A model generated the notes under the pieces. That model did no database searches, was not told where the DNA came from, and worked only from the letters and a program-made list of their open reading frames with translations. From Amoebophrya sp. A120 (Eukaryota > Protista > Dinoflagellata): a stretch of DNA of 64,000 bases. The position numbers were made by a program, and so were the translations under genes. The stretch spans positions 5,932,476-5,996,475 of the forward strand of contig CAJINV010000002.1 of NCBI GenBank assembly GCA_905178155.1. Reading direction: 5' to 3'. Positions 3,101 through 57,545 of the stretch are shown here, in pieces (the stretch's first letter is position 1; every line of letters begins with the position of its first letter).

Positions 3101-6100
3101 CTGGCCTGCGACACCAGCATTTCCACTTCTCGGTGATAGTATCGTGATCTTAACCGAATTCGGTGACCCCGGTGACTGTGTCTTGTTTGTCCCCGCGGGT
3201 GGAGATTTTGATCGTTCAACCAGTGCTCTCGACCGATCCAAGATCTCCTGCAATTCCTCCGTCGAGGTACGGATTTTCGCCGTCGCTGTCGTCCCGTTGG
3301 GGGAGGGCTCGCGCTTTAAAATTGACTTCGGACTAGTTGCACTACTGGAAGAACTGGCACCAGCATCGTTCTTCATTAGCTCTGGCGCTGTACCAGCAGC
3401 TCCACCAATGTAGGACGAAGAACTGGAAGTAGAAGCCGCTGCGCGACCAGACGCCACGTTCATAAATTTCTTGTCCACGGTGCTTTTGATCACCACCCGG
3501 GTGCTCGGCGGACTGGCAGAGCTACTGGCTTCACTGACCTCCATGAGCGGGGAGAGGGGTGCGGTGGTCACGGTCATCGGCCACACGGCGGGTTGGTTCG
3601 CGAGAATGGCGGCGTTGGCCGAAAGGTCGATGGTGTGATCCGAGAATTGTGGGAGCTCGGTTCTCAACTGTTCGTTCGCGAGAAACTGCTGCTCGGGTAG
3701 GTTTCTGGCTGACGACTGTCTCATTGTGTTCGTGTTACTACTGTTCGAGTTCGAGTTCGGTGGAAATACCACGTCGCCGTTGGAAATTGAAACTTCGTTC
3801 TGATTCCCGATCGTCGTGGCCCGCCTGGGAGAGGTTTGTTGCTTTGGCGAGCGGGAGCTGGAGAGTCTAGTTCTCGGTGATCCGGAGGAGGCTCTAGGGG
3901 GAGACGTCGACGAGGCTTGTCGTGTTAGTCCTTCTGTCACTGTTGCACTTCCACCGGCGTTGTACACAACATTTTCAACGACCGTAGTTGTTCCACGAGG
4001 ACCAGGTTCTTGTTCTCCCACAACTGTCGGCGACGAGGACCCGTGAACAGCAGGAGACCCCGGACGACTTGTTCTGATCCTTTCATCCGTCAATCGGATT
4101 ACCTCTCTTTCCAAAACTAGTATCCTCGTTCTCGCCTGCTCCAGCTTGTTCTGCAAGACAAAGTTCAACTCGGAGTACTCCACTGCTTTCTTCTCCAAAT
4201 GGTTCTGCAGTATCTCGCCTTGTTTGATCTTTTCCAACTGGGAAACAATTTTCTCCTCGAATTTCTCGTTTTTCAGTTTTAAGTCTGTGTTCAAATTGTC
4301 CAACTGCATTTTCTCGTGCTCGTAAGCCGCATGCAACAACTGATTCTGAGAAGGAATGTTGAGCGTCGGCGCGCCGCTGGGGAGAAGGGAAGAAGTGGCT
4401 CGCAATTTCGACGCAGTGCCTGGGTTGGAGGAAGACTGCCCACCTGGTGAGGTCAAAGAATTGCCATTCACCCGACTCCCGGGCGTGTAGAACATCATCG
4501 CCGGGGACTTGCTGTTCATTTTCTCCAGAAAATCGCTCCCGGCGGACAAAGTGTTCGGCGTTTTCAATAAGTGACTATGCATCGGACTCCCCCCATCGGA
4601 AACGGACAAGAAGCCGGCGTTGTTGTTCATCGCCCGTCGTCTTTCGTCTTCGCAGAGTCTCTGCAGTCGGTGCCGCTCGTCGTCGAACTGGATCTGCATG
4701 CGGCGTTTTTCTTCCTCCAACAGCTGGACCGTCTTTTCTTTGTTTTGCTTCTGCAGTTGGTTTTCCGATTGCAAATCCTTCAATTTCTCGGCCAAAGTGT
4801 CTTTCTCTATGGAAAGCTTGGAAAGAAAAGTTTCCTTTTCCAGCAATTCGTCCTGCGTGCGCAGCAGTTGCCGCTTCAGACGCTCGGAGTCCTCCTGTTT
4901 TATTGGGGGTGTTGGAAAAAAGATTCAGATGCATAATTGATGTCGTCATGTGACGTGTGTTGCTAGACCATTCTCTCTAGAAGACCACAAAGCCGAGGGG
5001 AACAAGCAGGAAACAAATCCGCTTGCTGTAATGTTCAAAAACAAAAGCTTACCTTCGCCTCCCCCATGATTTCCTCCCTTTTCCTCTCCCCGGAAATCTC
5101 CACTTGCTCCCGCATTCGGGTCAATTCTTCATTTTTCCGCACTTCCGCTTCTAAATCGAATTTCAAATTTCTCACTGCCTCCTCCAATCCCTGCTTCTCA
5201 CACTTCACCTCTTTTAACAATGCCTCCAACTTGTCATACTCGTGCTGCAGCTCTTCCTTCTCTATCCCCATTTCCCGGTTGTTTTTTTCCAAGTTCTGCA
5301 AATCCCAGTCCTTCGCTTCAAACGATTTTTGCATCTGCAGGACCGTTGCTTTTTCTTTTTCCCGCAAACTTTCGATTTCAGTCCTCAACCTTTCCTCCAT
5401 TTGATCCTTTTTCGCGAGGATGTCTTGCTTTTCTTTCGACAGACTTGCGACAATCTTTTCCCGTTTCGCATTCTCCTCGTCTAAAAACTGCCCCTTCAAC
5501 AGTTCGTGCCGGTTGCTCTCCTCTAGTTTCAAGTTTTGCGTTTCCTCGAGTTCGAGTTTCGTTTTTTCCAAGACCTGCTCCAATTTCCGTACTTGTTTTT
5601 GCAGCTCCCAATTTTCCGCCGACATCTGCTGTTATGCATTGCAAATATGTCTGGATCTGGGAGGAAGATGCAAGGTCTGTCATGCTTGTCTGGAATGACT
5701 GAAGAGTTTGTGATGCGTGTCCAAGAATGAATGAATGAATGAGTGACGCCCCCTGACGCACCTCGTCGATCCGATCGCTTCACCAGTTCTTCTTTCCTGG
5801 ACTGCCACGAATGCAAAACGCAGCCAGCTTGTCACGCATACATATTAACCAGCAAGCGATTTCCCGGTCCGACGGCCCCTCTTACTCCGGTTTTCGACGA
5901 CACACGCTGTGTCGCCTGTGGGTGAACCGGTACGCCATGCGTACATGGACGAAACCCCGATTGGCCGTTGAGCCACCCCCACGGCACCTACCGACTCTCC
6001 CCGAGCCGGTACGCGTGATCAACAAACACCACTAGTGCCTACTGCTAGCCAAGCTAAGTTGTCGGGGTTGTTGCCGAAGGTGAAGCTTGTCGGCTTAGCA

Positions 6101-9100
6101 GTTCTTTTTGTAGTGGGGGGGAGGAAAAAAGGAAAAACCTGGGGTCGGGGCCGAGGGTCGTAATCTCTTTTGCGAGGGGGTCGAGTCAGCGCCCTGCTTT
6201 CTCTGTCGTGCACTCATGATCCCGGCAAATGAGCCTCATGCTGCTTTCAGCAATCCGACAGGTGAGCTCCCATGAGCTTCAATTTGTAAGGAGTTTTTTG
6301 GTTGGCCTTCTTTCCGCCACGACCCTCAGCTCCCTGGGGTTCTTGTCCTTCTCCTCGTGATTCAGGGTTTTTGCACCCGGACGAAGAGGGTGCAGCAAGC
6401 AGAAAAAATGAAAAGACGACCAGTCATTGGAGCCATGTGCTTTGATTCTTTGTGGGGGTTTTGCTACTACTACGAACGGGGGGGCTTTCTGCTGCTACGA
6501 ACGGGGTATGGGGCTGCTGCTTCTGCCGCTCAGATTGCTACTGTTGCCGCCTCCGGCTTTTTCTGCGTGGCACCCGCCACTGCTACTGCGCTTGGGCTGA
6601 TACTACTACCGCCGGGATTATTCCTGCTACTACTACATACCCGAGATTCGCGCCGTTGTGCCCGTCCCACGCTGCTGCTGTGCGGAGTTGGCGCCCAGCA
6701 CCACCCGGACTACTACTACTACTGCTGCCGCCACTGCGGCTTCTTTCTCGGCGCCGGCTTCCATAACCTGTTCTTCTGTCCCGCAAAGTCTTCTTTTTCG
6801 TCTGCCTCGAAGTTCGTCCGCTCGTCTGTGCTTCTGCTCGTTGTGCTTGTCCTCGTCTTTCTCGTCTGTGTTCTGGCGTTGTGCAGGGAGAGAGATCCCA
6901 TTGCTTGTCATGCAAAAACGCAGCTTGTCATGCGAAAAGCGCAACACTAAGCCGCGCAAATATTTCTCATGCTTGGCTGTGCATTACAGAGCATTCACTG
7001 TTCACAATCCAGCATTAGAAGTTTCCAGACCCAGACATTATCTTTGCATTTGATAGCTCCTGATTCAAGTTCGACTCCGTTTTCAACGTCTCCGCCCCGG
7101 ACTGGAGCTGCTTGGAGTTTTGCTCCAACATCCGGATTTTCTCGAAATTCTGCTCCATAATCGACTCTAACTGCCGGACTTGCTTCTCGATTTCCAGTTT
7201 TTCCTCGAACAAAATCGATTTTTCCTTCTTCACTTGCTGCAGTAACTGCTGGACGTCCTCCACCTCGGATTTCAGCCCGTTGACTTCGGTCTGGTGCTTT
7301 TTTCTCAGTTTGATGTTCTGCTCCTCGAATTCGTTGTATGCGGTTTGGAGTTTGGAACTGTTTTCCGCTGTCAGTTTATCTACAGAATTAGCTTTTTCTT
7401 TCTTCAGTTCCTCCACTAGTAACTGCAGTTTCTCCACCTCTTTCTGCTTCGCTTCCTCGAATTCCGCATGAAGCTGCACCAATTCCTGGAGTGCGCGGTC
7501 GGACTCTTCCAGCTGTTTTTGGTACTGCTGGACTTGCGACTCGTAGGTATACACCGCTTGCTGGAGCTGCAACGACTCGGAATCCAGCTGCGAAAGCTCG
7601 GCGTCTGTGGTGTTATTTTTTCATTTATCGAAGATTTCTGCTCGTCATGCGACATGAGAAATGTATTGAAAACTACACGAGAACATTAATTGAAGTAGTT
7701 CCTGTAGTATCACCAAAATCTAATGGCAGCAATAGCAAACTTTGGATTTGTTGAAAACATGAAACTCAAGTTGTACCATGCCAAAAAATACCTTTTCCTT
7801 GTTGCACTTCGATGTAGTTCTTTAGCCGGTCTAGGATCGCTTGCTCTCTCGCCTCACCGTCGAGTTTCAGTTTTTCCTCCTTTTCATACTTCGTTTTCCA
7901 TTCGAGAAGTCTTTCTGACAAATTCAAAATCTCCTTCTCGATCAGCCGCATCGTGTACTCAAACTCCGCTTTCTTCTCAACTGCAGACACCTTGAACCCC
8001 AGCTCCTCCTCCTCCGAGTAAGTGGTCAGCTTTGTTGTACTATTGTTTGCGCCGTTCAGCTGTGAAGATTTGATGTCTCCCTGCAGAAGTAGTTGATGTC
8101 CACCTGTTGGTCTCGGTTTCGCTAGCAAGGTTGTCAACCGACCGAGGTTGGTTGTCGGCGAGGATGTTCTGGAGAAATCCAGGAGCTGCTGCTCGCTGGC
8201 CAGACCGCCGCTTATCGTTTTCCGCTCTTGCTGTTCAGTACTCGCATTGAGACCATTGCTTCCCGCTGTGCTGTTCGCACTATACGTTTGGTTCACGTCG
8301 ACCATCTGTCGCTTCAATTCCACCAACATGGGCGTATACGATTCGTACAATTCCCGCGCCACGGCGTTCCGTCGCTCCCACAGGTACTGTGCTTCTTTCG
8401 GCGCGGAAATACCGAATTTGATCTCCTCCGGCTTCTTCGCCAACGCCTTGCGCATCGAGCTAGACAGTGCCGAGTTTTCTCGCTGTCGCTGTTCCGGACT
8501 GGTGACGCTGCTGGCGAAGGCGGTGGGGGAAAGGAAACTGCTGTCTTTCCTCCCGGTGAGGATCGAGCTGGAAACCGCCTCGGTCAAAATCTCCACGTCT
8601 TCTTTGGTCAACCGATGTCCTCCTGCTTCGTTACTATGTTGTGCCTCACCGCTTCCATCTCTATTGTTTACCTTGTTGTTCATCCCACCTATCGACGCCG
8701 TTGCAATCACAGACGACACGGACATGAGTCTTTTCCTCAGAATTTCGTTTTCCTGGTCTTTCTTTTCTATCTCTCCCGTCATCTTCGCGATTCGCTCTTC
8801 CACTAGCGTCACCTGGTCGACAAACTCTTCCATGAGCTGCTGCTTTTCCATTAATTGTTCCTCCAAAAACAAAACCTTCTCCTCGTGCTCGTTCAGCAAA
8901 ACGTCAATCCTCTTCTCCGATTCCTGTAGCGTGTCCGCCAAACGGGCCTTAATGGTGAGGAGCGTTTTTGTGTTGGCGAAATTTTGGCTGTTGTTGTTTG
9001 CAGCAAGAAGAACTCCTACGTCCGAGGTGATGGAGGCGTCGAGTAGTGCTTCACCAGCATTGTTCATTGCATTGTTTCCACCAGCCTGTGCCGTCTGCAA

Positions 9101-12100
9101 CAGCGCAACCTGGGAGTCCAGTCTGTTCGATGGCCGGGTTGTGTTCTTGCTCGGCGAATTCGATGCGGACGACGTCAACCGTGAAGATGGACCCCGACTT
9201 TGACTTTGTCTGGCTCCCGCTGTATTACCAGCACCACCGTCACGAAACGAAGTGCTGCTGGCAAAATTCCCTGTTGTGTTGAACTCGGACAAGTCCAAAC
9301 TGCAGACTTTCTGCAGCTCCGTGTAGTTCCAGCGGCTCTGTTTCAGCTTTGCCTGCCACTTACTGATCGTCTGCTGCATCTTCGCAAGCTCCCGATTCTT
9401 TTCTGACAATTGCTTCTGCATGTCCTGCTTCAGCTGCGCGTTTTGCTTTCTCATGTTCGTCTCAAATTCCTCCATTGTTTCCTGTTTTTCGTCTAACAAC
9501 TTCGACAACTGCTCCACTTTCTGCTTGTACTTCGCGATTCCAATCGACTTGTGGATTCGCTTATCGACAGTGCAAAAGTATCGCTGTCGTGATCGTCGCA
9601 TTGGTAATAAACTGCATCGCAGGTTTTTTCTGAAAGAAATATGAAATTTGTCATGCAGATAAAGGTAAGAAAGAGATGAAAGAGCGCACACTTGTTCTCG
9701 CGCAGCAGAATTTTTCCAATGAGTACGAGCATTAATTGATGCTTTTGCGGTGCATATCTTTCCTTTTCTTTCTCGAACTCCAGCTCCATCTGGAGTTTCT
9801 CCTCCTCCTTCTCGTCGATCTTTTTCGACAATTCTTGCTCCCGCAAAAGCTGCGCCTCGATGTCGTCCCGGAGTTTTCCGATCTCGCTCACTTTCGCCTC
9901 AATCGTTTCCTCCCGGTGGGCGAGTTGCTTCTTCAACTGGTCTATGCAGTGCAAAAGTATCGTAATCATACTATTAATTACGTTTATGCATTACAATTTT
10001 TTTCTCAAGGCAAATCCGCATTACAAATTTTATTTGTATTGCTAAGTCGATTTGTCGTGCAATTTATACTAGTACGATGCTTTTGCAATGCATATGGGCA
10101 AGCTCTTTGATCTTCTCTTCCTTCTCGTGGACCACGTCCAGTTTGTCCTTTTTCACCGCGGCGAGTTCCTGCAGGTAATTCTCCTCCAGTAGGTGCTTCT
10201 CGTTCAGGTGTCGCGACTTCAATTCGTTCAGCGCGGTATTGCCGTCCTGCTTCACCTTGTACATCTCATTGGACAAATCCGTGTTCTTCTGCTTCCACAA
10301 CTGCAGCTCCTCAAATATTTTTTTCTCCTCCTTCTGGATTTTCTCCACCTGGGTTTCCGCCTGCTTCTCCAGTTGCACCAATTGCGTTTCTTTCAGTAGC
10401 AAGGCTTTCTCCTCTTCCTTCTTCGCGTGCAGATCCGACTGCAGGGTGACGCACTTTTCGTCCAAATTCGCCTTTTGCTTCTCCAGGGTTTCGTAGTTCG
10501 TGAGCATTTATCAAATGCAAAAATGTCTGGGTCTGGAAGATTGGAACTTGTGATGCTAACTTTGGAGTCTAGAAAAATCTGTAATGCATGACCAGCAAGA
10601 GGAGTCTAGTTTGTGCTACGCGGGGAGGGCGTTTGTCATGCGGAGTAGGCATCAGGAAGCCATCTCAAAATCTGTGATGCGCGATCGTGCATTACAGACA
10701 TCCTGGGTCATGCAAAACATGCATGACAAATCTCAGAATCTTCCAGACCCAGACATTTTTACAATTGATAGCATTTTCGTCAGTTGCTCCTCCTTCGTGG
10801 TGTGGACCCGGAGGAGTAAGAGAGTATCAAATGCAAAAGTGTCTGGGTCTGGAAGGATGCAACTTGTGATGCTGAGTTTGGATTCTACAAAAATCTGTAT
10901 TGCATGAACAGCAAAAGAGGTCCAGTTTTTGCCACGGCGAGAGGGCGTTTCTCATGCGGTAAAGGCATCAGAGAGCCCTCACAAGGGTTTAGGGTTTAGG
11001 CACTAGAGCATGCGTCACAGACTTCAGGAGTCATGCAAAGTGTGCATGACAAACCTTGCATCCTTCCAGATCCAGACATTTTTGCATTTGATAGAGAAAA
11101 TACTCCAGCAAGTCGGAAAGCAGTTGCTCGGTCTGCTTCTCTATCCTGTGCAAAAGTATCGTACTCGTATAAATGCAAATCTTGCATTACAAATCTTGTT
11201 CCCAAGGCAAATCTGCATTACAAATTTCATTTCTCGCGCAGAGGAAATTTGTCATGCGATTTATACTAGTACGATGCTTTTGCATTTCATATTCTCCTTC
11301 TCTTCATATTGGGTGAGAAAATCGATCTTTACATTTGTGGACTGCTCGTTCAGGGATTTTTCCTCTTCCAGCGATTTCTCGAAGTCCTGGTCCAGCAGCG
11401 CCTTCGTCTCTTTCAGCTGTTCCTTGATGTCGGAGAGCCCCGTGCCGAAGTCCACGTCACGGTGAGCTTTCTTCATGTGCCTGGATAAGTAGAAGATTGT
11501 TCTGGAGGAAACTCACAAAATCTCATGTTTATCTGTCAAGAACAACACGAACATACTAAGTGGAGTCGTGACCCACCGGAGCGCGAGTCACAGTATTAAG
11601 ATTAACTTTGCAATGAACACGCACAGGAATCTTTGTCACATGAAATGAAAATCAGGATTAGAGTACAGCAATTTCGCGCTGTCGTCCTCCATCAATCCCT
11701 TGGTGCTGCATTCGCTGTGCAGGTGGTCCAGAAACTTCCGCACCTTCTGGTTGAACGCGTGCCGTCTGTTCACCATGACTTTCTTCTCCACCGAATGTTC
11801 GTCCAATTGCCTTTTTTCCAGCTCTTTCACCGTCACGTTCAGGTTTTTCTCCGCTTTTTCTACCAGGTCCGCTTTCTCCATTTCATACTGCTGCCGCATT
11901 TTCGCGATCTGCCTTTCCGCATTGGATTCCACCTCGAGCAGTTTACTCTGCTTCTCGTCGTAGATCTCTTTGTTCAACGCTTCCAGTCTCGCGATCTCCA
12001 GATTCGCTTCCCGGAGCCTTTTTTCCGCGTCAATACGGAGAATTGCCTGCTCCTTGTCGTCATCTTCGTTGAAAAAAAGCTTTGACTTCCGGGCCTTGGA

Positions 12101-15100
12101 TGCAGTTCTTGTTCCACCTCCTGTACCGGTCAGTTGCATAATTTCTCCCCGCTCTACCGCACCACTTAGGAGACTTCTGGGACTGGTGGACAGCGCCACA
12201 TTATCAAATGCAAAAATGTCTGGGTGTGGAAGAATGCATGTTTGTCGTGCTTGTCTGGCATGACTCTTAAATCTGTCATGCACGTTACCGAATAGCGCCA
12301 GTTTTCTGTCATGCAGAAACGCAGGCTGTAATGCAGAATAAGCAACACCTAGACGCTCAGAAACTTGTCATGCTGAGCCAGCACTTGTGGCCTCATCATG
12401 AGACGCCACCCAGCATCACAAGTTTCCAGACATCCAGGGATTTTTACTTTTGATACACATGCTCGTCCTGTAAATGCTTCAACTGGTCGTGCATGGACTC
12501 AATGGTTGACTGTAGTTCCATATGGAATGTAAAAATCCCTGGATGTCTGGAAGGGTGCAACTTGTGATGCTGCATTTGGGTGCTAAAAAAACCTGTATTG
12601 CATGAACAGGAAAAGAGGTCCAGTTGTTGCTACGCAAAGAAGGGATTTCTCATGCGGTAGGAGCATCAGAAAGCTCTCGCAGAATCTGTGATGCTAGGCA
12701 TGCATCACAGACATCATGCCTCATGGAAAATATGCATGACAAACCTTGTACTCATCCAGACCCAGACATTTTTGCATTTGATATTCCACCACATCGTCCA
12801 TTTGCTTTTGGTATTTTTGCTCGATCACCAGCCTTTCTCTTTTTTCCCGCTCCATGTCCTCCTGTAGCGTGAAATAATCGTGATCTTTGTCCTTCAGCTA
12901 TCAAATGCAAAAATGTCTGGGTCTTGAAGTGAAGAGTCATGCTGTTTATGCATGACACAGAAGGTCTGGCATGGAAGCTCCAGCATCACAGGCTTCGAGA
13001 AGCTTCCGCAATGCCGAATCCGCATGACAAATCCCCCACTTTGGTGACAGAAAGTGGGCAGCTTTTGCTACCTATGCACGAGAGATTTTTCTGTGTTCTG
13101 AAATGCGCATCACAAGTTTGTATTCTTCCAGACCCACACATATTTGCAATGCATATCAGCTTCTGCTCCAACTGCCGCACCCGGGCCTCCAGCCGCTGCT
13201 TCTGCAGTCGGATGTCCGTCAACTTCGTCATCAAATCGACCTTGTTCTCGGATTTGCTTTCGCTCGCGTACTTGCTCGCGGCGTCCTTTACCTGCTGCAT
13301 CAGGTTGTCGCGCTCTTCCTGTTTTCATTTCTTGAGGTGGACGCGCAGGATGACGACAGTGGCAATCCTGCCGGGTCATGATCGGAAAAAGAAAGAACAA
13401 ATGCATGCAAAAAATTTTTCTTCATCTTCCACGCGAAGTAAAAAATCGATTGCCAATAGTACCTGATGCTGTTTCGTCATTTTGTTGACACTGAGCCGGT
13501 TTTTCTTCCGCTCCTGGAGCAGCAGCTCCCGCTGGCGCTCGATCTCCTCTTCCAGCTGCTTTTTTTCCCTTTCGATGTCCTTGTGATTGTTTTCCACGCT
13601 GATCCTTTTCTGCTCGACGATCTTCAGCTTGTGCATCGTTCGTCGGTGCGACTCCTCGGACTTTTGCACTTTCTCCTTCTCCTCGCTCAACTGCTTCTTC
13701 AGATCCTGGTGCCCTGACTCCAGAGACTGCAGATACTGCTGCAGCACCGGGTTCGAGTGCGGATTGGTCGCTGCAGACGTGGTATTCGTTTTAGTACCAT
13801 GACTGGGTGGCCCTTCAGCTAACTCATAGACCGTGCTGTCGCGATCATGAATGCGGGAACTAGAGCGGCTTCCGGCGGAAAGAGAGTTCGCTGGTGGCGG
13901 CGTTTGATGTAGTCTAGACGCTGCACCATTTGCGTTTTGCGTTGCCCGCTGTCGCTGCGGAGAGACAGACGGCGTTCGAAGCTTGGAGCCGCGGAGCGCG
14001 CCGGGTGTTGTACTACTAGGATTCGTTGCAGATGAAGCAGCTGCCGTTGTACCACCAGCACCTTCAGAAGATGGAAGCTGCCTCGTTTTCCGGCTGTTGT
14101 CTGGTGGGAAGTCAACGTTGTTGTAGACCCTGGGATCGGTAGGCACATGGTAGTTGATCGCTGGGATTTGCTGTAGTTGCCCTGTTCTCTCGTCGATATC
14201 CACCAAATTGATCGACGGATTTGAAGATATCGCAGAAGTCGTCGTCGCTACTGCACCACCAAGGCCGGGTAAAGACACTACGGCTTCTGCTTTGCCTCGG
14301 TCAAGAACTGCATGCTGTTGATGTTCTCCCGACGCGGATAGTGGCGGCGTTTCGTCCTCGGAGCTGCCTTGGCTCCTTCCCGGGGGGAGAACCACTTTTT
14401 TGCTTGAGGAGGGAGAGGACGATAGTTTCGAAGCTGACTGTTGCTTAGCGTCTGTTTTCGTCGTCCTCGCTTCAACAGCTGTAGCTGTTCCCTGTTCAAC
14501 ATCTCGCTGCCGCCGCAACACCTCCGCGTGGTCGTCCGCAGCTGCTTTCGACGTTTCCGCTTCTTCCAGCAGACTATCGATCGCGCCGAACCTCTTCACC
14601 ATTTCCCTGGTCATACTGTGCGCCGACGCGTCGTGGTAGCTCGGAACTTGATGTGAAGAAGCCAATGCTGAAGCTGATGTCGTGTCGACAACTTTATGCA
14701 ACGAAGACGACGACGAGGACGAGCCAGACGGGACAACTTTATTAACACCATTATTGCTATTCGCGTTTTCGTTTCTTCGGTTCGGATCTATTTCATTGTT
14801 CCCGCCCTGGAGTTGTTCTGTCCCCGATTCTGGATCGTGGTAGAACTGGTTCGCCGCCGAAGGGATGCTGTTGATCTTCACCCCTGTCGGTGGCTGCACC
14901 TCCGTCGAGGCCACAGAGCCGTCGTCCACTTGCAGGTCTAGCATCGGTCGTTGCTCGAGGACTTCTACGCCTTCTACAGTAGTAGATACGGGCGGATACG
15001 TGCGCGGCGCTTCCAGTTCGACAGAATTAGAGCTTCGCGAGATCATCACGGCGGAGTTGGAAGTCGCTCCCGCGGCAGCCGTGGTAGTTGATGGGGGGTC

Positions 15101-44231: not shown

Positions 44232-46763
44232 ACGGAATCAAAAATGATGTCGCGGCCGGCCGTGTGCTACTGACTATGAAGAAAGAGTAGTACTTTGTTG
44301 TACTTGTTCTTTTTACTGACAGAAACAACTAGAACAAGTATTTTGCACCACCAGTTTCTCTTGACAATTTTGACTTGGCCTCAAAATGCTCCAGTACTTA
44401 CTTCATCACTCGTCGTTCAATAAACGGCAGGGAAGTAGTAGTAGTTGATACTCAAAGTGGACTCCATGTGGTTGGGTTTGAAACCTCTGCGAAAAAATTT
44501 AGTGTGAGATAGTTTTCTGTCGCTGTCTCAGAGCGAGAATTACTACTACTGGTCTGCCCGGAGGCATCTAAGCAGTTGGCATCGAGAAAAAAAAAAGTGT
44601 GCCCCGGCAAATACCTACAAAACAAAAATTTAAAGTTGACCGATTTTCTTATTTTGCGAAAAAAGCGATCTTCATGAGAAAAAGGTACATTGAGAAGACT
44701 TTATTCACCGAAAAATCAACCGACACTTCTAAGGACTTACATTTATATTCATGTGCGCAGGCGCCGGCACGCGCGCAACGAACACAAAATAGGAGAAGCT
44801 GCTTCGAGGGCGGCAGAGCTCTAGCCCAACGCCGTCCCATAGTTCCGGACGTTTTTATTTTCATACAAAGCAGACACTGGGATAACAGGTCAAGAAGCTC
44901 TAGGTCACTCGGTGGAGGTCTTCAAACATAAACTAAAACTGTATAATTTCGTCGCTGGTAGATATCGACGACAAAATCTGTCAAACAGAATTCAACCGAC
45001 TCGTCATTCTGTCGCCTCGAAACCACGAATTTCTCTGGTGCGTTTTAGATTCTGTAAAATCAAACAAACAGGTTGTTCAAGAAAATCATCTTCTTCTAAA
45101 TCCAAAGTCGCCGAAGATTAATTCTTTTTCAAATCGAATTCAAACCAAATTCAAAACTTCAATGTTTCAGGTCCTCATGGTGCCACTGGACACCTGTGGC
45201 GAGGGTCAATCATTTTGCAAAAAAAGTCAGCAGCTGACATGCCTCACCACAGAACCTGACCCAGGTCTGGTCGTCATCCCAAGGAGTGCGCGCTTTGGTT
45301 CCAATAGTCGCAAGCAGACTCCCACTACTCATCGCCCGCTCCTGGTGTTGTACCGCTCGCACACCATCCTCGGCGAGCATGTAACGTCAACGATCTCACC
45401 GAGCGCCCTCCGCCGGTTTGTGAAAGGAAAGCGCCAAACAGAGCCTAGCTCACCGGGAACCCCTCCCGCCGGCCGCAGGCAGCAAGGGGCCGGGCCGCGG
45501 AGGTGGGAGACACCACATCCAAAGGCCACACTACACGAGGGGGCTACACTATGCTACTCGCCCGGGTGAATATGAAAAATGATCGCCCAGCCTTTAGGAG
45601 GGCGCATTGCTTTTGTTGCAGGGCGAGAAAAGAGACGCCTGGCCCTTCGGTTACCACCGTCGCGGCCCGCGCGCGTCGAACTCCCGAGACCACCATGTGC
45701 GGAGCAGCAACTACCGCAGAGACAATAAATCTCCCTGAAGCAAGACAATTAGCCACGCAGCGACAGCATTGGGCGTGGGCGACCACACTCACAAGCGAGC
45801 CCGGCGGCCTCGCTTGTCGGGCTTCCAGCCATCCATTCCAAGCGATGCCACAGGCCTTCGCGCTTCGATGCGCTTTGCCAAAACACGAAGAAGGACACAG
45901 GGCGCGCGGCATTGCTAGCCCTAGCTGGCGAATGAAAGACGAATATTGTGCGCGCGCGCAGCGCGCGCGCCCCCAGAATACCTTTGCCGCTGCTGCTGCG
46001 GGGGCTACCTGGCGGCATTCATGCATGCTGGCAGTCGAGTGGCCCAGGCCCTAGAGTCAAGGCGTGGCTTCGCCGTCGAAACCACGAATTTCTCTTGTGC
46101 GTTTTAGATTCTGTAAAATCAAACAAACAAGTTGCTCAAGAAAATCATCTTTGAATCAAGTGAAGTGAAGTGAAGTGAAGTTGAAAAGATCTCCTTTCCG
46201 AAGCTTGCGCCCTCGTCCAGAGATCCCGGCACTGTTACGCCGTCCCACGGAATCAGATAGTTTTGCATGCAACGTGGAACAGACCTAGGTGGGTTTAAGG
46301 ACCCAGGTGGCATTCGAGAGACCCAGAGAGAGGACCGGACGCAGGAAGAGCAACCACTGATGCTAGAGGCAGTGGACCTACGGGCGCTCCCCAGTCCCCC
46401 TCCAGGGATCCGGACTCCCCTTGGGACACATGGAAAAACCGAAGGCAGCTGAGGTGCACGCGCTCAGCTGTCAGACAAACCGATGATACCCCTTCACTGG
46501 CAGGAAGTCCCTCAAGGTATCACAACACTTCCGGGGGGAAGCGGCAAACCGCCTTACCTACATACGTACCGACGAGAACTACATGCTGGCCAGGCAACTT
46601 AGAATGGGAAAGCTGGGATAACTTACCAACCCGGAACAAGAAAAGATAACAACTGACCACCGCAAGAGGCACCCTGCTAAAAAATAGTAAAAGCCGCCCG
46701 CGGGCAAGGACTAACAGCTTAAAGGTAAGGGGGGACTCAGCAGCAAGCAGACAGAACACGACT

Positions 46764-46911
46764 TATCCTGTGCAAAAGTATCGCACTCGTAGTAATAGCA
46801 ATCCTGCATTACAAATTTTTTCCGACGGTAAATCCGCATGATAAAATTTATTTCCCACGCTGAAGAAATTTGTAATGCATTTATACGAGTACGATACTCT
46901 TGCAATGCACA
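46764..46911. mobile_element. Introner family B inside array spacer 2
   Basis: tatcctgtgcaaaagtatcg...cgatactcttgcaatgcaca, perfect TSD cgact. Confidence 0.88.
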
Positions 46912-47469
46912 CGACTAGACTGACTACCACGACGGCACAATGCACCACCGAAACCGAATATCCGAACTGAGCGATGACACAAAGAAGAAGAACCCATGAA
47001 ACACGACAAACATAAACACCACGTAGGGGGGACATCTAATCAGCAGGAAAAGTGCTAGAGACTGCCCGCACATCAGGGACAAGAGCAGCACATCTTTTCC
47101 CGCCGAATTTGTAAGCAGGCGTGCAATATTCTAAACACAATGAACCAGAACTGTACCTGGGAAGCCAAGGTAACCAAACAGCGAGTTTTTCTGGTGCGTT
47201 TTAGATTCTGTAAAATCAAACAAACAGGTTGTTCAAGAAAATCATCTCTTTCAAGATTGAACCGCCAGGGTCCCTCGAAAACCCAACGGACAGACACCAC
47301 GTCCGCCCAAAGCCACGACGCATGGGGCCAACGCAATTCCATTTCCAAGGCGGCCGAGAGGGCCCAGATGCACCCTCTCCCCTCGATTGATCGGGCCTGA
47401 TTGGTGCCTAACATAAAACATATCATGCCACAGACCACACCAATACCAGAGCGATCACGCAGAGTGCCC

Positions 47470-47640
47470 AATTTCAAAAGGAAATTGGCGGGCCTAAGCA
47501 ATTTCAAAAAGAAATTGGCGACCTGAACGGAATTCAAAAAGAAATTGGCGGGGTTGATGGAATTCAAAAAGAAATTGGCGGCCCCGAGACAATTCAAAAA
47601 GAAATTGGCGGATCTGGGCAATTTCAAAAAAAAGTTGGGA
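47470..47640. repeat. 30-bp-period tandem repeat (5 full + 1 partial unit)
   Basis: Constant a(a/t)ttcaaaaagaaattggcg followed by a variable ~9-10 nt. Confidence 0.9.
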
Positions 47641-49558
47641 ATAAGTTGGAGACAAGTTCAAAATTAGTTGGGTCAGGGATTCTTAGTATGGGAAACAGAA
47701 AAAAGTTGGCTTCCAACTTATTTCCAACTTTTTTTTGAATCTGGCGAAGGGAGATTCCTCAAGACCTGGATCCTCTTGAGTTGGCGTGCTTTACTGCATG
47801 CCCCTTCAAGTACGAAATCCCCCATCCGAACCGCTGTCGAGAAGCCTTTCGGCGTGAAGGTCGACCCTATCAATGCCCCGCAAGCTACGCCCCAACACCC
47901 TGAAAGGAAGAGGGGCAGGAAGCGATCACGAATGAAAGCCTTTACACAAAAAGCGCGCATCCGAAAAAATAAACCCAAGCCCCGCTCAATTTCACGGAAA
48001 AATGAAAAGTGCGTCTTTTTGAATTCCTTTTGAAATCATTTTGCATTGTTTTTAGCATAAGGCGCTTTGGAGTTAATCGAAGCCACGAATTTCTCTGGTG
48101 CGTTTTAGACTGTTCTGTAAAATCAAACAAACAGGTTGTTCAAGAAAATCATCTTCTTCACCGAGGCCAGGGCCTTCAGCCAGGCATTGCCATTGGTGGC
48201 AGGCAGGAGCCTCCGTTCTCCTGGTTGTGGGCAGAAAAACCGCGATGAGCGAGAAACCCCGCACTCATGCCCCGCCGGCCCGGCTATGTTCCTTCCAAAA
48301 TCCATGTAGCAAACAGCGCCAAGATGCAAGCATCCCAGAAAATGTCAACACCTCAACCGGTCACCCGCAGCTCCCGGTCAACACCTCAACCGGTATTTGA
48401 GGCCAATCACCCGCAGCTCCCGGTATTTGATGAGGCCAACGCGTCCTCGAGATCCAAAACAGGGAGCGGAACAACAGGAGGGCGAAACCATCTACATCCA
48501 CCAAGCCAGCCCAGCACATGATCGCCTGAAATAGAGGCGCCCGCGCGCTGCACCTTCCGACGCAACCTCCTGACCGACGGCTCCAAAACAGGGGCGACCA
48601 GACCCAGCGCTGCCTGGCCTATAACACCCAAGGCCCACTTGCACCCGACCCGGAATTAGGACCCCCTGACGGAGAGGGGAGAGCTACACGTAGCGGCGCT
48701 TGCTACGTATGACGCCTGTCATTGACAATTCTGGTGCGAAATGGAGATAGCTACGAAAGCCAAACCAGGGCACTGCCGAGGCTAGCATGCCGACCAGGAA
48801 GCCCGTGCCAGAACAAATACGGGCGGAAAAGAACTCCAGAGCCGCTGCCCAAAAATGTGAAAGAAAACCTAACCCAAAGATAGCCCCACCAAAACGCCTT
48901 GCAGTTTGTAGCGAAAGTAGTTTGCCAACCGACACAAAGAAAGCACCCGAGCAATTCCTTCCAGAAGATGAGACACCGGCGGCGCGCCGCCCAATCCAAA
49001 AGCCGCCCAGGCGCCTGGGTTTGTAATCAGAGTCCGAAATTGCCAAGAGAGAAACTTGCTTGGTGCGTCGCTGAAACTCCGGCACACGGCCTCGTCGTGC
49101 CAAAGCTGAAATGCCAAGCCCCCTAGTACCCGGCCACCTCCTAGTCTGACCCCCCGGATACAGAAACCGCGAATTTCTCTGGTGCGTTTTAGACTGTTCT
49201 GTAAAATCAAACAAACAAGTTGTTCAAGAAAATCATCTTCTTCACCGAAATAACAAACATGCGCGCTCGTCTGCTTCACCGAAATAATGAAGAGGCTGAC
49301 ACGTCAAAGTAGGTTGCTCAAGGCGAGTAGCCAGGCGCAATTCGCGATGGGCGAAGAGCTCGCCCGAAGTCCCCATCTTTCCATCTGTGCACGTTGCAGA
49401 AGTTGCGTCTTCCTGCCAACCGCTCAACTTTTCACAAACAGGAAGGGAGGCCAACCCAAATTCGCCAGCAGCCTCAGAGGCCAACTGATTAGAAAAGGGA
49501 CCGGCCCGCTGGCGGCAGGCCGGTGCCTTTCATCGACAACCCCAGACTGCGGCCGGGG

Positions 49559-49697
49559 ATTTCAAACGACAGTCGGGAATTTCAAACGGCTAATCGAGAT
49601 GCCGGCCATTTTCAAACGGTTGATCGAGAATCTGGCCAATTTCAAACGGTTGATCGAGATTCTGGCCAATTTCAAATGGTTGATCGAGATTCGGTCA
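49559..49697. repeat. 30-bp-period tandem repeat (about 4 units plus a partial)
   Basis: Unit aatttcaaacggttgatcgagattctggcc. Confidence 0.9.
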
Positions 49698-50845
49698 AGA
49701 GTTGGTCCAAACTCGGTCCAAATTTGGTCCACATATACGTATCCGTGTCTGGATCAATTTTGGATCAAATTTGGACCAAGTTTCCTCTCCGGCAAAATGG
49801 AGTGGCGAATCAACCAGGACTGCCCGCGAGGGAGCGCATCCAACTCAGAAATAAAGCAGTCCACGCACCAGCGCCAATCAGCCATGTTTTTGGCGTGTCC
49901 CAATCTCCTTACGCCGCCCGCAGCTATTGCGAAGCTTCTGAAAGCTTCGCGAGAAGCGACCACGGCGAATTGCTTCTGTGTCTCGCCAAGTGCGGCACAC
50001 ACCAAGGACCGGCCGAGCCCGCGGACGCGGGCATGTGCTGACATGTCATGTGGAATCCTACACGGCCCCAGTGGGGGCCGCGCATTTACGCAACCCCTAC
50101 CCCTCACATACACTCCAAAAGCCGCCCGGGTGCGCGCCATTTGTGGCGCTTGTGCGTCGAAATGGGTCGATGACGGTAAGAAAGGCGCACACAACGCGCC
50201 GTCAGACTCGGCCACATCGAGAGCTATCTAAAAAAGCGAAGTAGAAAACTGCGCGCTGATGCCTTCCTCTGGGCGCGCGAAATTCGACTTGAATCGGCCA
50301 CGCGCGCTCCGTGATTTATTTCTGCCGGGCGGCGGCAAAGCCTGAAGTTCCAAACTTTTGAAATTGATTTGAATTGCGTTGCATTTACTTTTAACGCCGC
50401 CTGCTTCTGAGTTAATAAAATCAAACAAACAAGTTGTTCAAGAAAATCATCTTCTTCAAACAGGAGCGAAATTTCATCGAATCTAGGATTTTTTTTATCG
50501 GAACTACAGGTAAAGGGTCGCTGGGAGCTACAATCTCAATTGGCTAAAGATATCGCATCTTGCTGGAAATCTTCTCAAAACTAGCTCACAACCATCAGAT
50601 CAAAGATACAACACCTCCCATAAACTCGCGATCTCCTGCGGCTGCGCTTTCGAGAGAAAGTAGGTGTACTCACTCTTATCTCATGGTGAACGTTTTGTCG
50701 TGTGATCCCCGTCGTCATCAAGGTCAAAACTTCAACAATCCGTTTAGTTGTAGAACTAGGATTTGGCTTAGGCTTTTGTTCTCAACGAGTTCTTCGTCTG
50801 TGGTAAACTACTTATTCTCTTTTTCTGTCCCATCATAATTCTTCA

Positions 50846-51337
50846 TCAGAAGAAAGCCGCCACTTTCTTCTTGGTTTGCTCATCCATTTTCGATGATGAA
50901 TTTGAGCCACACACTAGCTCGTCTTCTGCCGTATGATCTTCCGTTCGGCTGGTGTCGTTTTCCTCCATCGCGGCAGCTTTGTTCACAGTCGTGGTCAGAG
51001 TCAGTTTTACTCGTTTCTCGTTCTTCGGGAGGGCGAAATTTGGGTTGCTGTTCCGGACGATTTTTTTCTCACCGTCTAGTTGTACCCCGTCCTGCTCGTT
51101 GTCGGAGTTCGCGTCCTGGAAGTCTTCGTTGTGGTCGTCATCTCCACCTTCACCCCTGTTTTCCGAACCGGAAGACTTCATGTACGAGTACACCGCCGCG
51201 GCACCTGCACCCACGGCCAAAACCGGGGCGGCAGAAAGCATCGCTGATCCGCCGACCACCGCAGCAGCACCACTGGCGACCGCGGAAGCGCAACCCGGTG
51301 CGCACATGCCGGCGGCGACTGGAATTAAAGCGGCCAT
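50846..51337 (-). CDS. Small hypothetical protein with an Ala-rich hydrophobic N-terminus and an acidic middle
   Basis: Single ORF from ATG 51337 (MAALIPVAAG...), co-oriented with its neighbours. Confidence 0.5.
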   Translation of the reverse strand: MAALIPVAAGMCAPGCASAVASGAAAVVGGSAMLSAAPVLAVGAGAAAVYSYMKSSGSENRGEGGDDDHNEDFQDANSDNEQDGVQLDGEKKIVRNSNPNFALPKNEKRVKLTLTTTVNKAAAMEENDTSRTEDHTAEDELVCGSNSSSKMDEQTKKKVAAFF

Positions 51338-51806
51338 GGTGATGAAGATGGGGATCGATAGAGAAAGTTTAATATTGAAGTTTTCTTGCAATTACAACGA
51401 GGCAAGGTTTATTTTGTTGTTCTCTTACGACAGTCACAGTTAGGGTTCCTACATCTCGTTCTCGTGCTTGACATTGTCATGATTTTGAGAGCAAAAAAGG
51501 AAATATCCATGGTCGATTTTGTTGGACTGAAAGCGATGTAAGCGAGTGTTGTTTCAAGAACTTGTGAAGAAAGATGCGTTTGTTCTATCTGGGCTACTCA
51601 CACTCTCTCTCGCGACAAACGAATTCTGTTTTATACGAGAAAAGCTTTGCGAGTCATAAGATTTCTAAGGAACAGGAGACTCATACGCGAACGAGTCACC
51701 GCATGTGGCGGTAGCCTCTATTGGTGGCGTAGATCGCACCACTCGAGTGTTCATTTGAACGTCTCGTTACTATGTCTTTGGCCGGTTATGCCGTGCTACC
51801 AGTTTC

Positions 51807-55203: not shown

Positions 55204-57545
55204 TCAGCGATGTCGCTTCCAGAAATCCTGCATAAAATCGCGGACAATTTGCACGGTTTCTAGCGTTTGTGCGTTGTAGGTCGTCACACGATATCCTGCG
55301 CAAAAGTATCGCGCTCGCAGTAATTGCGCTTATGCATTACAAAAACAAATCTCTTTCTCAAGGTAGATCAGCATTACAAATTCAATTTGTAATGGTGAGC
55401 TAATTTGTAATGCAATTTATACGTAGTACGATACATTTGCATTGCATACGCGAATTGCGTCGCTGTCGATCCCCAGCGGGTGGGAGCGGATGTCCAGCCA
55501 GCCCAGGTCCTCCGAGGTTTCCTGCAAAAATTTTGCAACCAATTCGGGGCTATCCTGTGCAAAAGTGTCGCACTCGTATTGCAATCATGCATTACAAATC
55601 TTTTTCTTCAGGCAAATCCCCATTACAGATTTTATTTCTCATGCTGAGGAAATTTGTAATGCATTTATATATACGAGTACGATACTTGTGCAGTTCATAG
55701 GGGTTTCGCCCGGTCTGCCCGTCGCCGATGGTAAAGACAATGTTCATGCGGGACCGGAATTTCGGGTCCGTCACGAAGGTGCTGTAAAATTGCTCGCACT
55801 CGTTGTCGATGAAATTGTACAAGACGTTGGCCCGCGTTTTCGCGAGCTCGTCGAAAAATTGGAGTCCCCCCTGCTCCAACATCCAGTTCGTCGTCAACTT
55901 GCCCAGCCAAATCGCGAAAATGACCGGCACGTTGTAGATTTTGTTGTCTGCGGTCTGAAACTTCCACCAGTTGCACATGGTCGGGGTTCCTGGTAACACA
56001 GCATTTTCCTCCAGCAAGGCCTTTCGGATAATGGTGTAGCACACGCCGCTGGTCGAGAAGTTTTTGTGCGCCGCGGCGTAGAGCACGCCGTACTTGGAGA
56101 CGTCGATTGGCTTCGACCCTAGATTCGCACTCGCGTCGCAGGCGAGAATCTGGTCCTTCGGGACAATTTCGTAGGGGAAATCGTGAAACTCAAACCCCTG
56201 GCGCGTGTCCGCCGCGGTGTAGTGTGTGTAAACTGCTTTTCTTGAAGATGTTGGGGTTTTCTTGTTTATTTCTTCATCTTGTGTAGTAGTTTTCAGAAAC
56301 TTCCAGTCTCTCTCGTAGTCGTTTGATAAGCTGAAGTATGAACTGCAAAAGTATCGTATTCGTATAAATGCATTACAAATTTCCTGAGCATGAGAAATAA
56401 AATTTGTAATGCAAATTTACCTTAACAAAAGGATTTGTAATGCATGATTGCAATACGAGTGCGATACTTTTGCACAGGATATGAAGAAGAGATTCTTCTG
56501 CAGCGGACAATCCGTCACTTCATTCACCTCCAGGTTTATCCTGAGTAAAAACGTACCCACGCCAGAGTTGTAATGCAGCTTTGCAAAGACAGGAAGACTT
56601 GTAATGCGCATCCCCATCAGAGCCATTTCCAATTGTGTTTTGGAATTTGTGATGCTGTGAACAGGATGAGCAGATGAATCTGTGATGCGGCTGCACTTGC
56701 TAACCTGCACTACACTGCATAGTGCAACTTGTCATGCGTGACCCACAAAACTCCTAGGTTTGTGTTGCAAAATCCCCATCCTGACTCTGGTGTGGGTACG
56801 TTTTTACTCAGGATAAGGTTCGGCAACAGTTCTTGGAACAACTTGGCCTCGTTGCGCGACTTCTCCGACCAGTGCCCGTTCATGATGTAGTTGCAGGCGA
56901 GTATCGTATTTAAAAACGTCCCCACCCCAGAGTTGTCATGCAGATTTGCAAGCACAAGAGCATTTGTAATGCGCATCCCCAAGAGAGGCATTCCCCGTCG
57001 TGTTTTGGAACTTGTAATGCTGTAAACAGGATGAGGAGACGTATTTGTTCTGCGGCTTCCCTTGCTAAGCTGCACTACAGTACAGCCTGCAACTTGTCAT
57101 GCGTGACTCACAAAACTCCTAGGTTTGTGTTGCAAAATCCCCATCCTGACTCTGGTGTGGGGGCGTTTTTACTCAGGATAGCGAGCTTTTGCGACTTCCC
57201 CCCGTCGTGTTTCACGGCCCGACCCAGCAGATTCATCGGGATCGCCGCGAATTGCAGCGTCGCTCCGCCGTTGAAAAAGTGCACTTCGTGGGTCTCGGTC
57301 GGGATGTTCAGCAACTTGCGGAAACTGGCCTCCGCCTCCTCCATCTCGACGTGAAAATTTCGGGTCCGGTAGCCCATTTCCGTGACCGACAGCCCCAAAT
57401 CCCGCGTGTCGAGGAAGTTCTTCTGCGCCTGCTTCAAAACCGGCAGGGGTAAAACCGCACAGCCCGCGGACAGGTTGATGGCACGCCCGTAGTTCTGGGC
57501 CAGATTAGCCGCGCGGCGTTCGGCGGCGACAGCTAGACGATTCAT
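55204..57545 (-). CDS. PSAT1: Phosphoserine aminotransferase (SerC/PSAT), interrupted by five introners
   Basis: Motifs NLSAGCAVLP, LSVTEMGYR, GGATLQFAAIPMNL, GHWSEKS, DASANLGSKPIDVSKYGVLYAAAHKN (PLP lysine), RSRMNIVF and IRVTTYNA. Frame restored at the junctions translated, and all five elements have 4/5 or 5/5 TSDs. Confidence 0.93.
55292..55448. mobile_element. Introner family B
   Basis: TSD cacga/cgcga. Removal gives DAIRVTTYN. Confidence 0.88.
55551..55699. mobile_element. Introner family B
   Basis: TSD ggggc/ggggt. Removal gives GRNPELVAKF. Confidence 0.9.
56337..56481. mobile_element. Introner family B, opposite orientation to 55551-55699
   Basis: tatgaactgcaaaagtatcg...cgatacttttgcacaggata, perfect TSD tgaag. 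Confidence 0.92.
56537..56815. mobile_element. Introner family C
   Basis: tatcctgagtaaaaacgtacccac...gtgggtacgtttttactcaggata, perfect TSD aggtt. Confidence 0.93.
56902..57180. mobile_element. Introner family C
   Basis: Same 279-bp length as, and close similarity to, 56537-56815. Perfect TSD gcgag. Confidence 0.92.

What the first reader, a model, noticed from the sequence alone, without database searches (positions are those of the whole stretch)
5633..57180. 29 non-GT-AG introner introns obey one rule: TAT...ATA termini plus a 5-bp TSD, removed with one TSD copy
Seen: at least six unrelated TIR families share the same termini and a 5-bp duplication (17 perfect, 11 partly decayed, 1 lost). 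In every junction translated, removing the element plus 5 nt restores the frame, including conserved PSAT and RING motifs. GT/AG is unavailable in register at junctions such as CTTCA|TATC...CATA|CTTCA. Canonical introns coexist in the same genes. Established: Amoebophrya spp. are reported to have abundant non-canonical introns with inverted and direct repeats, and their splicing mechanism is unresolved. Inference: seamless, hairpin-guided RNA excision of MITE-like DNA transposons by a second splicing activity.
Basis: partly seen in the sequence, partly recalled or inferred. Interest (0 to 1): 0.72.

Follow-up and report, generated by a model that had tools for sequence, protein, structure and literature searches.

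The report
Transposon introns cut at fixed offsets
In the marine parasite Amoebophrya A120, small transposons already known to sit inside genes are cleanly removed from the messenger RNA without the usual splice signals, and here every cut that can be placed falls one base before and four bases after the element, a spacing likely read by an altered host spliceosome.

Summary
Real, and largely published. The window is Amoebophrya sp. A120. Its introners, TAT+7+AAA ends and 5-bp repeats are in Farhat 2021; Gozashti 2025 notes '5-bp TSD, TA/TA termini' for one family. All 29 elements exist and I add two. Corrections: two lack an exact TAT/ATA end, one lies inside a larger skipped segment, and the families are related. 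Spliced-transcript contigs lack element+5 nt at 22 elements (12 singly, 10 by summed length); DNA contigs retain three elements whole. New as far as I could search: decayed duplications fix the cut. All 8 informative junctions fit only one register, 1 nt before TAT and 4 nt after ATA (chance 0.016), so the mRNA keeps a hybrid 4+1 duplication; Farhat lists this border as unknown. None of 30 is GT-AG, both orientations are spliced, and terminal triplets are conserved while duplications decay. The enzyme is unresolved: altered spliceosome about 0.5, nuclease plus ligase about 0.35. The scan earlier noted a similar element in Prorocentrum.

The parts
5633..7055 (-). Element 1 (1,423 bp; ends like #7 and #22). 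Intron = element plus 4 nt left and 1 nt right in window coordinates; same for all below
   Evidence: Contig skips 5628-7055; registers -3..0 fit
9562..9756 (-). Element 2, decayed duplication, weak folding
   Evidence: Contig piece ends at 9556; registers -2..0, inferred from one piece end; whole in a DNA contig
9943..10094 (-). Element 3 (150-bp family)
   Evidence: +5 by summed length
10509..10770 (-). Element 4 (260-bp family)
   Evidence: +5 by summed length
10825..11093 (-). Element 5 (260-bp family)
   Evidence: +5 by summed length
11142..11291 (-). Element 6 (150-bp family)
   Evidence: +5 by summed length
12202..12455 (-). Element 7
   Evidence: +5 by summed length
12521..12783 (-). 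Element 8 (260-bp family)
   Evidence: +5 by summed length
12899..13155 (-). Element 9 (260-bp family, opposite orientation)
   Evidence: +5 by summed length; orientation
17820..18051 (-).
18151..19062 (-). Element 10 (912 bp), duplication 1 of 5 identical
   Evidence: Contig resumes at 19064 and gene model P0010 fits only +5 at register -1
19625..19879 (-). Element 11 (singleton)
   Evidence: Gene model +5; contig piece ends at 19618
19954..20124 (-). Element 12 (singleton)
   Evidence: Gene model +5
20237..20381 (-). Element 13 (150-bp family)
   Evidence: Gene model +5, excludes register 0
20439..20725 (-). Element 14 (280-bp family, opposite orientation)
   Evidence: Gene model +5; orientation
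20767..21028 (-). Element 15 (260-bp family)
   Evidence: Gene model +5
21750..22058 (-). Element 16, decayed, weak folding
   Evidence: Gene model +5, excludes register 0; whole in a DNA contig
22213..22786 (-). Element 17 (574 bp, 280-bp family with insertion)
   Evidence: Gene model +5
37497..37605 (-). Element 18 (singleton)
   Evidence: Perfect duplication; not covered by either read lay; frame test uninformative
39051..39314 (-). Element 19, RNA 5' end TAC instead of TAT
   Evidence: Joint 39046>39316 in X1 and X4; registers -4..-1
40955..41132 (-). Element 20
   Evidence: Joint 40950>41134 in X1 and X4; registers -3..-1; P0001 agrees
42936..43086 (-). Element 21, RING gene
   Evidence: Joint skips 156 nt
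43205..43456 (-). Element 22, RING gene
   Evidence: Joint skips 257 nt
43520..43780 (-). Element 23, inside the RING motif, opposite orientation
   Evidence: Joint skips 266 nt, X1 only; orientation
46764..46911 (.). Element 24: 150-bp family copy with one ACA end, inside the 5,261-nt skipped segment
53424..53614 (-).
   Evidence: Joint 53418>53615 in X4; registers -1..0
55292..55448 (-). Element 25, PSAT gene
   Evidence: Joint 55285>55448; registers -1..+1
55551..55699 (-). Element 26, PSAT gene
   Evidence: Joint 55545>55700; registers -4..0
56337..56481 (-). Element 27, PSAT gene, inverted relative to #26 (89% identical)
   Evidence: Joint skips 150 nt; orientation
56537..56815 (-). Element 28, PSAT gene
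   Evidence: Joint skips 284 nt
56902..57180 (-). Element 29, PSAT gene
   Evidence: Joint skips 284 nt
4895..5052 (-). Canonical GT-AG intron. Others: 7605-7791, 11481-11666, 13319-13462, 17358-17501, 21137-21333, 52701-52837
   Evidence: Contigs, length sums or gene model
45128..50388 (-). 5,261-nt segment skipped in RNA contigs, reading GT...AA (two other registers fit equally); not of the TAT type
   Evidence: Joint 45127>50389 in X1 and X4

Best explanation
These are non-autonomous TIR DNA transposons (the known A120 introners) that sit in either orientation between 5-bp duplications and are absent from spliced transcripts, where every placeable cut falls 1 nt before the terminal TAT and 4 nt after the terminal ATA, and they are likely removed by an altered host spliceosome that reads the U-A-Y at intron positions +2 to +4 and would set the 3' cut by distance from the terminal AUA instead of by AG. 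Shown: elements, 5-bp duplication, both orientations, loss of element+5 nt from transcripts, one register for all 8 informative junctions, conserved terminal triplets. Because 1+4 equals the duplication length, an insertion at any site regenerates the original mRNA. Inferred: mobilisation in trans by one integrase-like transposase system; pairing of the two ends to bring the cuts together; the spliceosome as the enzyme. Descriptive part about 0.9; the stated confidence is for the whole mechanism.
For: Skips are element+5 at 14 of 14 junctions whose edge is read from contigs (12 with both edges), and only register -1 is common to them; random registers would share one in 1.6% of trials, or 9% without the two junctions inferred from one piece end, where the intersection is still -1. 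The predicted mRNA reproduces the coordinates of a 12,655-nt contig at 11 of 11 checked positions, within 1 ambiguous base. Gene model P0010 fits only -1 at #10 and excludes 0 at #13 and #16. At -1 the 5' ends are AT 11, CT 9, GT 6, TT 4, and the 3' ends are 16 different dinucleotides in 30. Terminal triplets deviate at 1 of 180 positions while duplications differ at 23 of 150 (about 14 expected if neutral, P=1.5e-5). For the spliceosome: 7 of 7 host canonical donors are GTA and 5 of 7 GTAY; the single deviant end (#19, TAC) matches the host's GTAC donors; Farhat did not detect U1 or snRNP27 in A120 and SNRNP27K loss goes with +4 U donors in fungi (abstract); a non-introner segment here reads GT...AA; spliced #2 and #30 fold weakly.
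Against: No biochemical evidence. A fully free +1, -2 and -1 has no spliceosomal precedent that I know (recalled; Fritillaria keeps AG-AC/AT). No conserved branch-like A is visible apart from the terminal ATA, 5-7 nt from the 3' cut. TAT is also the transposon end, so its likeness to GTAY may be chance (about 1 in 6 registers). 25 of 28 short elements fold strongly (z <= -3.7), as a structure-guided nuclease would need. The register rests on 8 junctions from contigs of one study, which show only the major form; raw reads laid were from a non-matching strain. No informative copy lies in the minority orientation of its family. Published A120 rows list duplication lengths from 2 to 11 and a Mutator family with 8-9 bp, so the rule is not universal for A120 introners. 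The conservation test is partly circular: 28 of 30 elements were found by motif or inverted repeat.
Confidence: 0.5

Rival explanations
1. A spliceosome-independent nuclease plus RNA ligase recognises the paired TIR ends and makes a staggered cut at -1/+4.
For: Symmetric signal (ATA at 30 of 30 3' ends, TAY at 30 of 30 5' ends), both orientations, no AG or G+1 bias; strong hairpins in 25 of 28 against none in 6 canonical introns. The Euglena code is also a short paired motif with unequal overhangs, N3 and N5-6, and its introns are excised as circles. SOS splicing is ITR-triggered and uses RTCB. Two of 3 A25 rows with a 5-bp duplication also list -1/+4 although A25 ends start TTA (28 of 60 rows seen), which points to geometry.
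Against: Weakly folding #2 and #30 are still removed; the terminal 3 bp are predicted paired below 0.15 in 9 of 28. SOS splicing is imprecise. The -1 register is the one that puts U, A, Y at +2 to +4 as in host donors.
Confidence: 0.35
2. There is no single register: cuts vary inside the duplication and the common -1 in this window is coincidence or a family-specific habit.
For: Farhat Fig. 3 legend calls the splice sites variable relative to the hairpin; the chance of a shared register is 0.016-0.09; published family rows show other offsets.
Against: 8 of 8 contig junctions and 3 further gene-model junctions agree; perfect duplications make aligner positions arbitrary, which explains apparent variability; 3 of 5 A120 rows with an automated 5-bp duplication list -1/+4 (header).
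Confidence: 0.1
3. The elements are excised from DNA in transcribing nuclei (like ciliate IES removal), not from RNA.
For: Absence of the joined form in DNA was not shown: one search listed 15 of 1,133 joints and did not count all.
Against: DNA-run contigs at depth 42-46 hold #2, #16 and #30 whole with no differences, and others run from exon into element ends. The contigs that lack elements also lack GT-AG introns. At the 6 contig junctions with a mismatch in duplication positions 2-4 (#1, 2, 10, 20, 25, 31) the transcript-upstream copy is kept each time, unlike a symmetric DNA cut with random repair (inference).
Confidence: 0.04
4. Ordinary splicing at nearby cryptic GT-AG sites.
For: Six elements start GT and two end AG at register -1.
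Against: 0 of 30 are GT-AG; no GT/GC/GA-AG pair in any equivalent register; no same-length GT-AG pair within 30 nt at any of 30; contig junctions are exact.
Confidence: 0.01

Closest known systems
Introner elements / non-canonical introns of Amoebophrya sp. A120 (Farhat et al. 2021, PMC7789003)
   Same: Same organism; inverted-repeat motif TAT, seven variable nt, then AAA; 3-5 nt direct repeats with a 5-bp example in Fig. S19; hairpins; mixed with canonical introns.
   Different: The paper gives repeats as variable, no terminal signature and the border position as unknown. Here the TAT class has 5 bp throughout and one register, -1/+4.
A120 introner families of Gozashti et al. 2025 (PMC12130899, supplement file 8), esp. 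fam38
   Same: TIR DNA elements of matching sizes; fam38 noted as '5-bp TSD, TA/TA Termini', filed under Ginger with Copia-like homology; fam56, fam74 and fam160 rows list splice_5 = TE_start-1 and splice_3 = TE_end+4.
   Different: No rule is stated in the passages read; automated duplication lengths scatter from 2 to 11; no coding copy lies in this window; family identity of my elements was not tested.
Euglenid nonconventional introns (PMC12501133; review PMC11282704)
   Same: MITE-like origin, no GT-AG, short paired terminal motif with unequal overhangs, coexisting with canonical introns.
   Different: Motif CDG/CH'G with overhangs 3 and 5-6 and a purine starting the 3' exon; here UAU/AUA with 1 and 4 and no exon preference. 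Circular products are shown there and untested here.
SOS splicing (AKAP17A-CAAP1-RTCB; PMC12779559)
   Same: DNA transposons removed from mRNA, inverted ends, not GU-AG.
   Different: Imprecise, multiple sites, leaves indels; here constitutive and seamless in the major form. Factors not searched in A120.
Fritillaria borealis non-canonical introns (review PMC11282704; PMC13326754 listing)
   Same: MITE-derived introns with TIR and duplication removed by an adapted spliceosome.
   Different: Preferred ends AG-AC and AG-AT; here only +2 T is fixed among the four terminal bases.
Introners of Polarella, Symbiodinium, Micromonas (bioRxiv 10.1101/2020.10.14.339549; PMC11282704)
   Same: TIR elements creating introns, some in both orientations.
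   Different: They recruit G(T/C/A) and AG from the element or the duplication, so target sites are constrained; here target sites show no preference.

Membership tests
A120 introner elements (Farhat 2021) | Genome is Amoebophrya sp. A120 | tested here: met
   P0001 100% identical, named A120; P0010 matches the spliced model
A120 introner elements (Farhat 2021) | Inverted-repeat motif TAT + 7 nt + AAA | tested here: met
   End profile against paper section 11
A120 introner elements (Farhat 2021) | 3-5 nt direct repeat at the borders | tested here: met
   5 bp
A120 introner elements (Farhat 2021) | Spliced, non-GT-AG, repeated | tested here: met
MITE (non-autonomous TIR DNA transposon) | TIR, fixed-length duplication, no coding capacity, multicopy | tested here: met
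   no Pfam hit in 4 of 4 ORFs scanned inside #1 and #10; very high summed depth over elements in the DNA run
MITE (non-autonomous TIR DNA transposon) | Cognate autonomous transposase element | not testable with these tools
   No genome held; Farhat found no transposase in A120; Gozashti reports fam38 with Copia-like homology
Ginger DNA transposons | Expected termini and duplication; integrase-like transposase | tested here: inconclusive
   Ends are TAT/ATA (TGT ends for Ginger are recalled); Gozashti's text says fam38 lacks Ginger termini and TSDs while its table files it there; no ORF to test
U2-type spliceosomal intron | GT/GC-AG ends | tested here: not met
   0 of 30
U2-type spliceosomal intron | Lariat intermediate, snRNP dependence | not testable with these tools
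   No matching raw reads
SOS splicing | Imprecise multi-site excision leaving indels | tested here: inconclusive
   Major form is seamless at all junctions read, but contigs drop minor forms
SOS splicing | Dependence on AKAP17A, CAAP1, RTCB | not tested
   No query sequences or genome in session
Euglenid nonconventional intron | 5'-N3CDG...CH'GN5-6|R signature | tested here: not met
   Ends are N-TAT...ATA-N4; first base of the 3' exon is unbiased

The most novel reading that the evidence does not exclude
A120 runs a second splicing code, N-UAU...AUA-NNNN, executed by a dedicated precise nuclease-ligase or a machine free of GU and AG, whose 1+4 staggered cut turns any 5-bp-duplicating transposon into a seamless intron at any site and in either orientation, which would explain tens of thousands of intron gains.
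Probability: 0.35. Interest if true: 0.85.

Novelty: already known. Interest (0 to 1): 0.55.

Why it matters
How about two thirds of A120 introns are removed is an open question, and the published work could not place the cut. A fixed -1/+4 register turns an apparently signal-less set into a code with one invariant U at +2 and a measured 3' end. It says where to look for branch points or circle junctions and which bases to mutate, and it explains why insertions are harmless only when the duplication is 5 bp. It also allows correct re-annotation of intron borders, and comparison with the Euglena code and SOS splicing as separate solutions to transposons in exons.

Tried and rejected
No whole genome is held, so no search for long transposase-coding copies or genome-wide register. 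No listed holder is on record as RNA; X1 and X4 are taken as RNA because they also lack GT-AG introns. A 'longer' protein search with the exon 19066-19617 found nothing; the representative search and cluster look-up then gave P0010. My first solution for the 17358-19063 gap failed until element 30 was recognised. Target sites show no palindromic symmetry or consensus. No preference for G at intron +5 at 5' ends over 3' ends. ORFs inside #1, #10 and the 5.2-kb segment have no Pfam hit. Rfam: nothing at gathering score in the window, only weak miRNA-hairpin matches in 44400-50700. Farhat Table S4 (nine top A120 motifs all N-T at the 5' end) fits -1 but was not counted as support, because aligner preferences can produce it when duplications are perfect. 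A bulge-helix-bulge model was rejected on recalled geometry and because direct repeats cannot pair. Scan look-ups by sequence and by place returned nothing.


Full report
1. Observation. Two more were forced by transcript data: 17820-18051 and 53424-53614. Over 31 elements, flank identity is 0.85 at an assumed duplication of 5 and 0.21-0.30 at all other lengths from 1 to 10. Two elements lack an exact TAT/ATA end (#19, #24). Interiors group into four multi-copy families and singletons, but all share TAT-N7-AAA ends and an inner GCAT[GTC]ACA repeat (93 of 96 occurrences inside elements), so they look like one transposon system, not six unrelated ones. Copies lie in both orientations in the same gene, for example #26 and #27, 89% identical and inverted.

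2. Identity and prior art. An exon between #19 and #20 is 100% identical to a protein named Amoebophrya sp. A120. [quoted passage not shown] Its figures (3, 4, S19-S23) are not held and may bear on novelty. Gozashti 2025 (PMC12130899: passages; all 58 A120 rows and 28 of 60 A25 rows of supplement file 8; files 13-14 not searched) notes '5-bp TSD, TA/TA Termini' for fam38. The elements are therefore known.

3. Are they spliced? Contigs of two runs guessed to be RNA, which also lack GT-AG introns, skip exactly element+5 nt at #1, 19-23, 25-29 and 31 (12 junctions with both edges). For #2-6 and #7-9 the contig length requires 25 and 15 extra nt plus canonical introns, and for #10 and #30 10 nt; the model reproduces 11 of 11 checked contig positions within one ambiguous base. 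Gene model P0010 gives +5 for #11-17 and may not be independent of these contigs. #18 was not covered; #24 lies inside a larger skipped segment. No canonical pair exists in any equivalent register, nor a same-length GT-AG within 30 nt, at 30 of 30.

4. Where is the cut? With a perfect duplication the cut cannot be placed; mismatches place it. As offset of the 5' cut from the first T: #1 -3..0, #2 -2..0, #10 -1, #19 -4..-1, #20 -3..-1, #25 -1..+1, #26 -4..0, #31 -1..0. Only -1 is common. Under random registers from -5 to 0 a common value occurs in 1.6% of trials; leaving out #2 and #10, which rest on one piece end, the intersection is still -1 and the chance 9%. P0010 independently of my piece reading fits only -1 at #10, excludes 0 at #13 and #16 and allows -2..0 at #30. 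So the intron is N-TAT...ATA-NNNN and the mRNA keeps four bases of the upstream copy and one of the downstream copy. Three of 5 A120 rows and 2 of 3 A25 rows seen with an automated 5-bp duplication list the same offsets without comment; the others do not, and annotated borders depend on the aligner. I found no statement of this register in seven literature searches, the reviews read in passages (PMC11282704, PMC11453091) or the Roy preprint, which does not mention Amoebophrya (passages). Roy 2023 and Huff 2016 are not held.

5. What is the signal? Target sites show no consensus. At -1 the first base is any of four and the last two take 16 forms; only +2 T, +3 A, +4 Y and the 3' ATA are fixed. 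Terminal triplets deviate at 1 of 180 positions against 23 of 150 mismatches between duplication copies (P=1.5e-5 under a neutral rate); the test is partly circular because 28 of 30 were found by motif, but in the stretches covered by contigs every non-canonical joint listed was of this type except the 5,261-nt one. Folding is strong in 25 of 28 short elements and absent in 6 canonical introns, yet weak in #2, #16 and #30, and the terminal 3 bp are predicted unpaired in 9 of 28 (25 shuffles each). Short end motifs therefore seem to matter more than a long stem (inference).

6. Mechanism. Insertion by a transposase making a 5-bp stagger is inferred; no coding copy is in the window. Because 1+4=5, removal restores the pre-insertion mRNA at any site and in either orientation. 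For the enzyme I favour an altered spliceosome (0.5): host donors are GTA in 7 of 7 and GTAY in 5 of 7, U1 and snRNP27 were undetected, SNRNP27K loss is associated with +4 U donors (PMC10581693, abstract), a GT...AA segment is skipped in the same window, and Fritillaria offers a precedent (PMC13326754 seen as listing and reference passages only). A structure-guided nuclease plus ligase (0.35) is the close rival: symmetric signal, no branch-like A, free 3' end, and precedents in Euglena (PMC12501133, passages and Discussion), diplonemids (PMC12621601, passages) and SOS splicing (PMC12779559, part 1 of 13 and passages), which however is imprecise. Nothing here separates the two directly.

7. Limits. 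One window, eight informative junctions, contigs of one study showing only the major form, no matching raw reads, no informative copy in a family's minority orientation, and other A120 families with other duplication lengths. An earlier scan note (e1-7693921) reports a similar element-plus-duplication skip in Prorocentrum cordatum; I did not test it.

8. Verdict. The addition is the fixed -1/+4 register with conserved ends, which answers a point left open in print and makes the mechanism testable. Interest 0.55.

Noticed in passing
window 45128-50388: RNA contigs of both runs laid skip 5,261 nt downstream of the ORF at 50846-51391(-). In RNA sense it reads GT...AA (AG...GA and AA...TG fit equally), has no 5-bp duplication and only a loose inverted repeat near its ends (1 of 300 shuffles scored as high). 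A second kind of non-canonical intron, or a structural difference.
   Followed up: partly
window 45017, 46075, 47170, 48077, 49161, 50416: An ~80-nt repeat (89-97% alike) recurs every 0.9-1.25 kb with unique GC-rich spacers; no Rfam family. Two 30-bp tandem arrays (47473-47638, 49578-49692) lie between.
   Followed up: partly
window 46764-46911: The one copy that need not be spliced on its own, being inside the skipped segment, is the one whose end changed at the second base while its duplication stayed perfect; a single-case control for selection on the ends.
   Followed up: partly
150-bp family (#3, 6, 13, 20, 21, 24, 25, 26, 27): 8 of 9 copies lie in one orientation relative to the minus strand; possible insertion or splicing bias.
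   Followed up: no
window 5633-7055, 18151-19062, 22213-22786: Three long elements carry extra interior DNA (nested or captured); ORFs of 150-224 aa in the first two have no Pfam hit.
   Followed up: partly
window 167-15913 (-): One 3,929-aa predicted protein with nine elements and four canonical introns, supported over 4000-16201 by a 12,655-nt contig.
   Followed up: partly
P0004: A 129-aa database protein 98% identical to the exon before element 10 reads on into a similar element end, suggesting an unspliced or genomic record from a close strain with the same insertion.
   Followed up: no
whole window: All genes examined lie on the minus strand, as expected for dinoflagellate unidirectional clusters; a kinase-like ORF (33708-37712) and an adaptor-complex small-chain-like gene (about 60800-61490) were recognised by eye only.
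   Followed up: no
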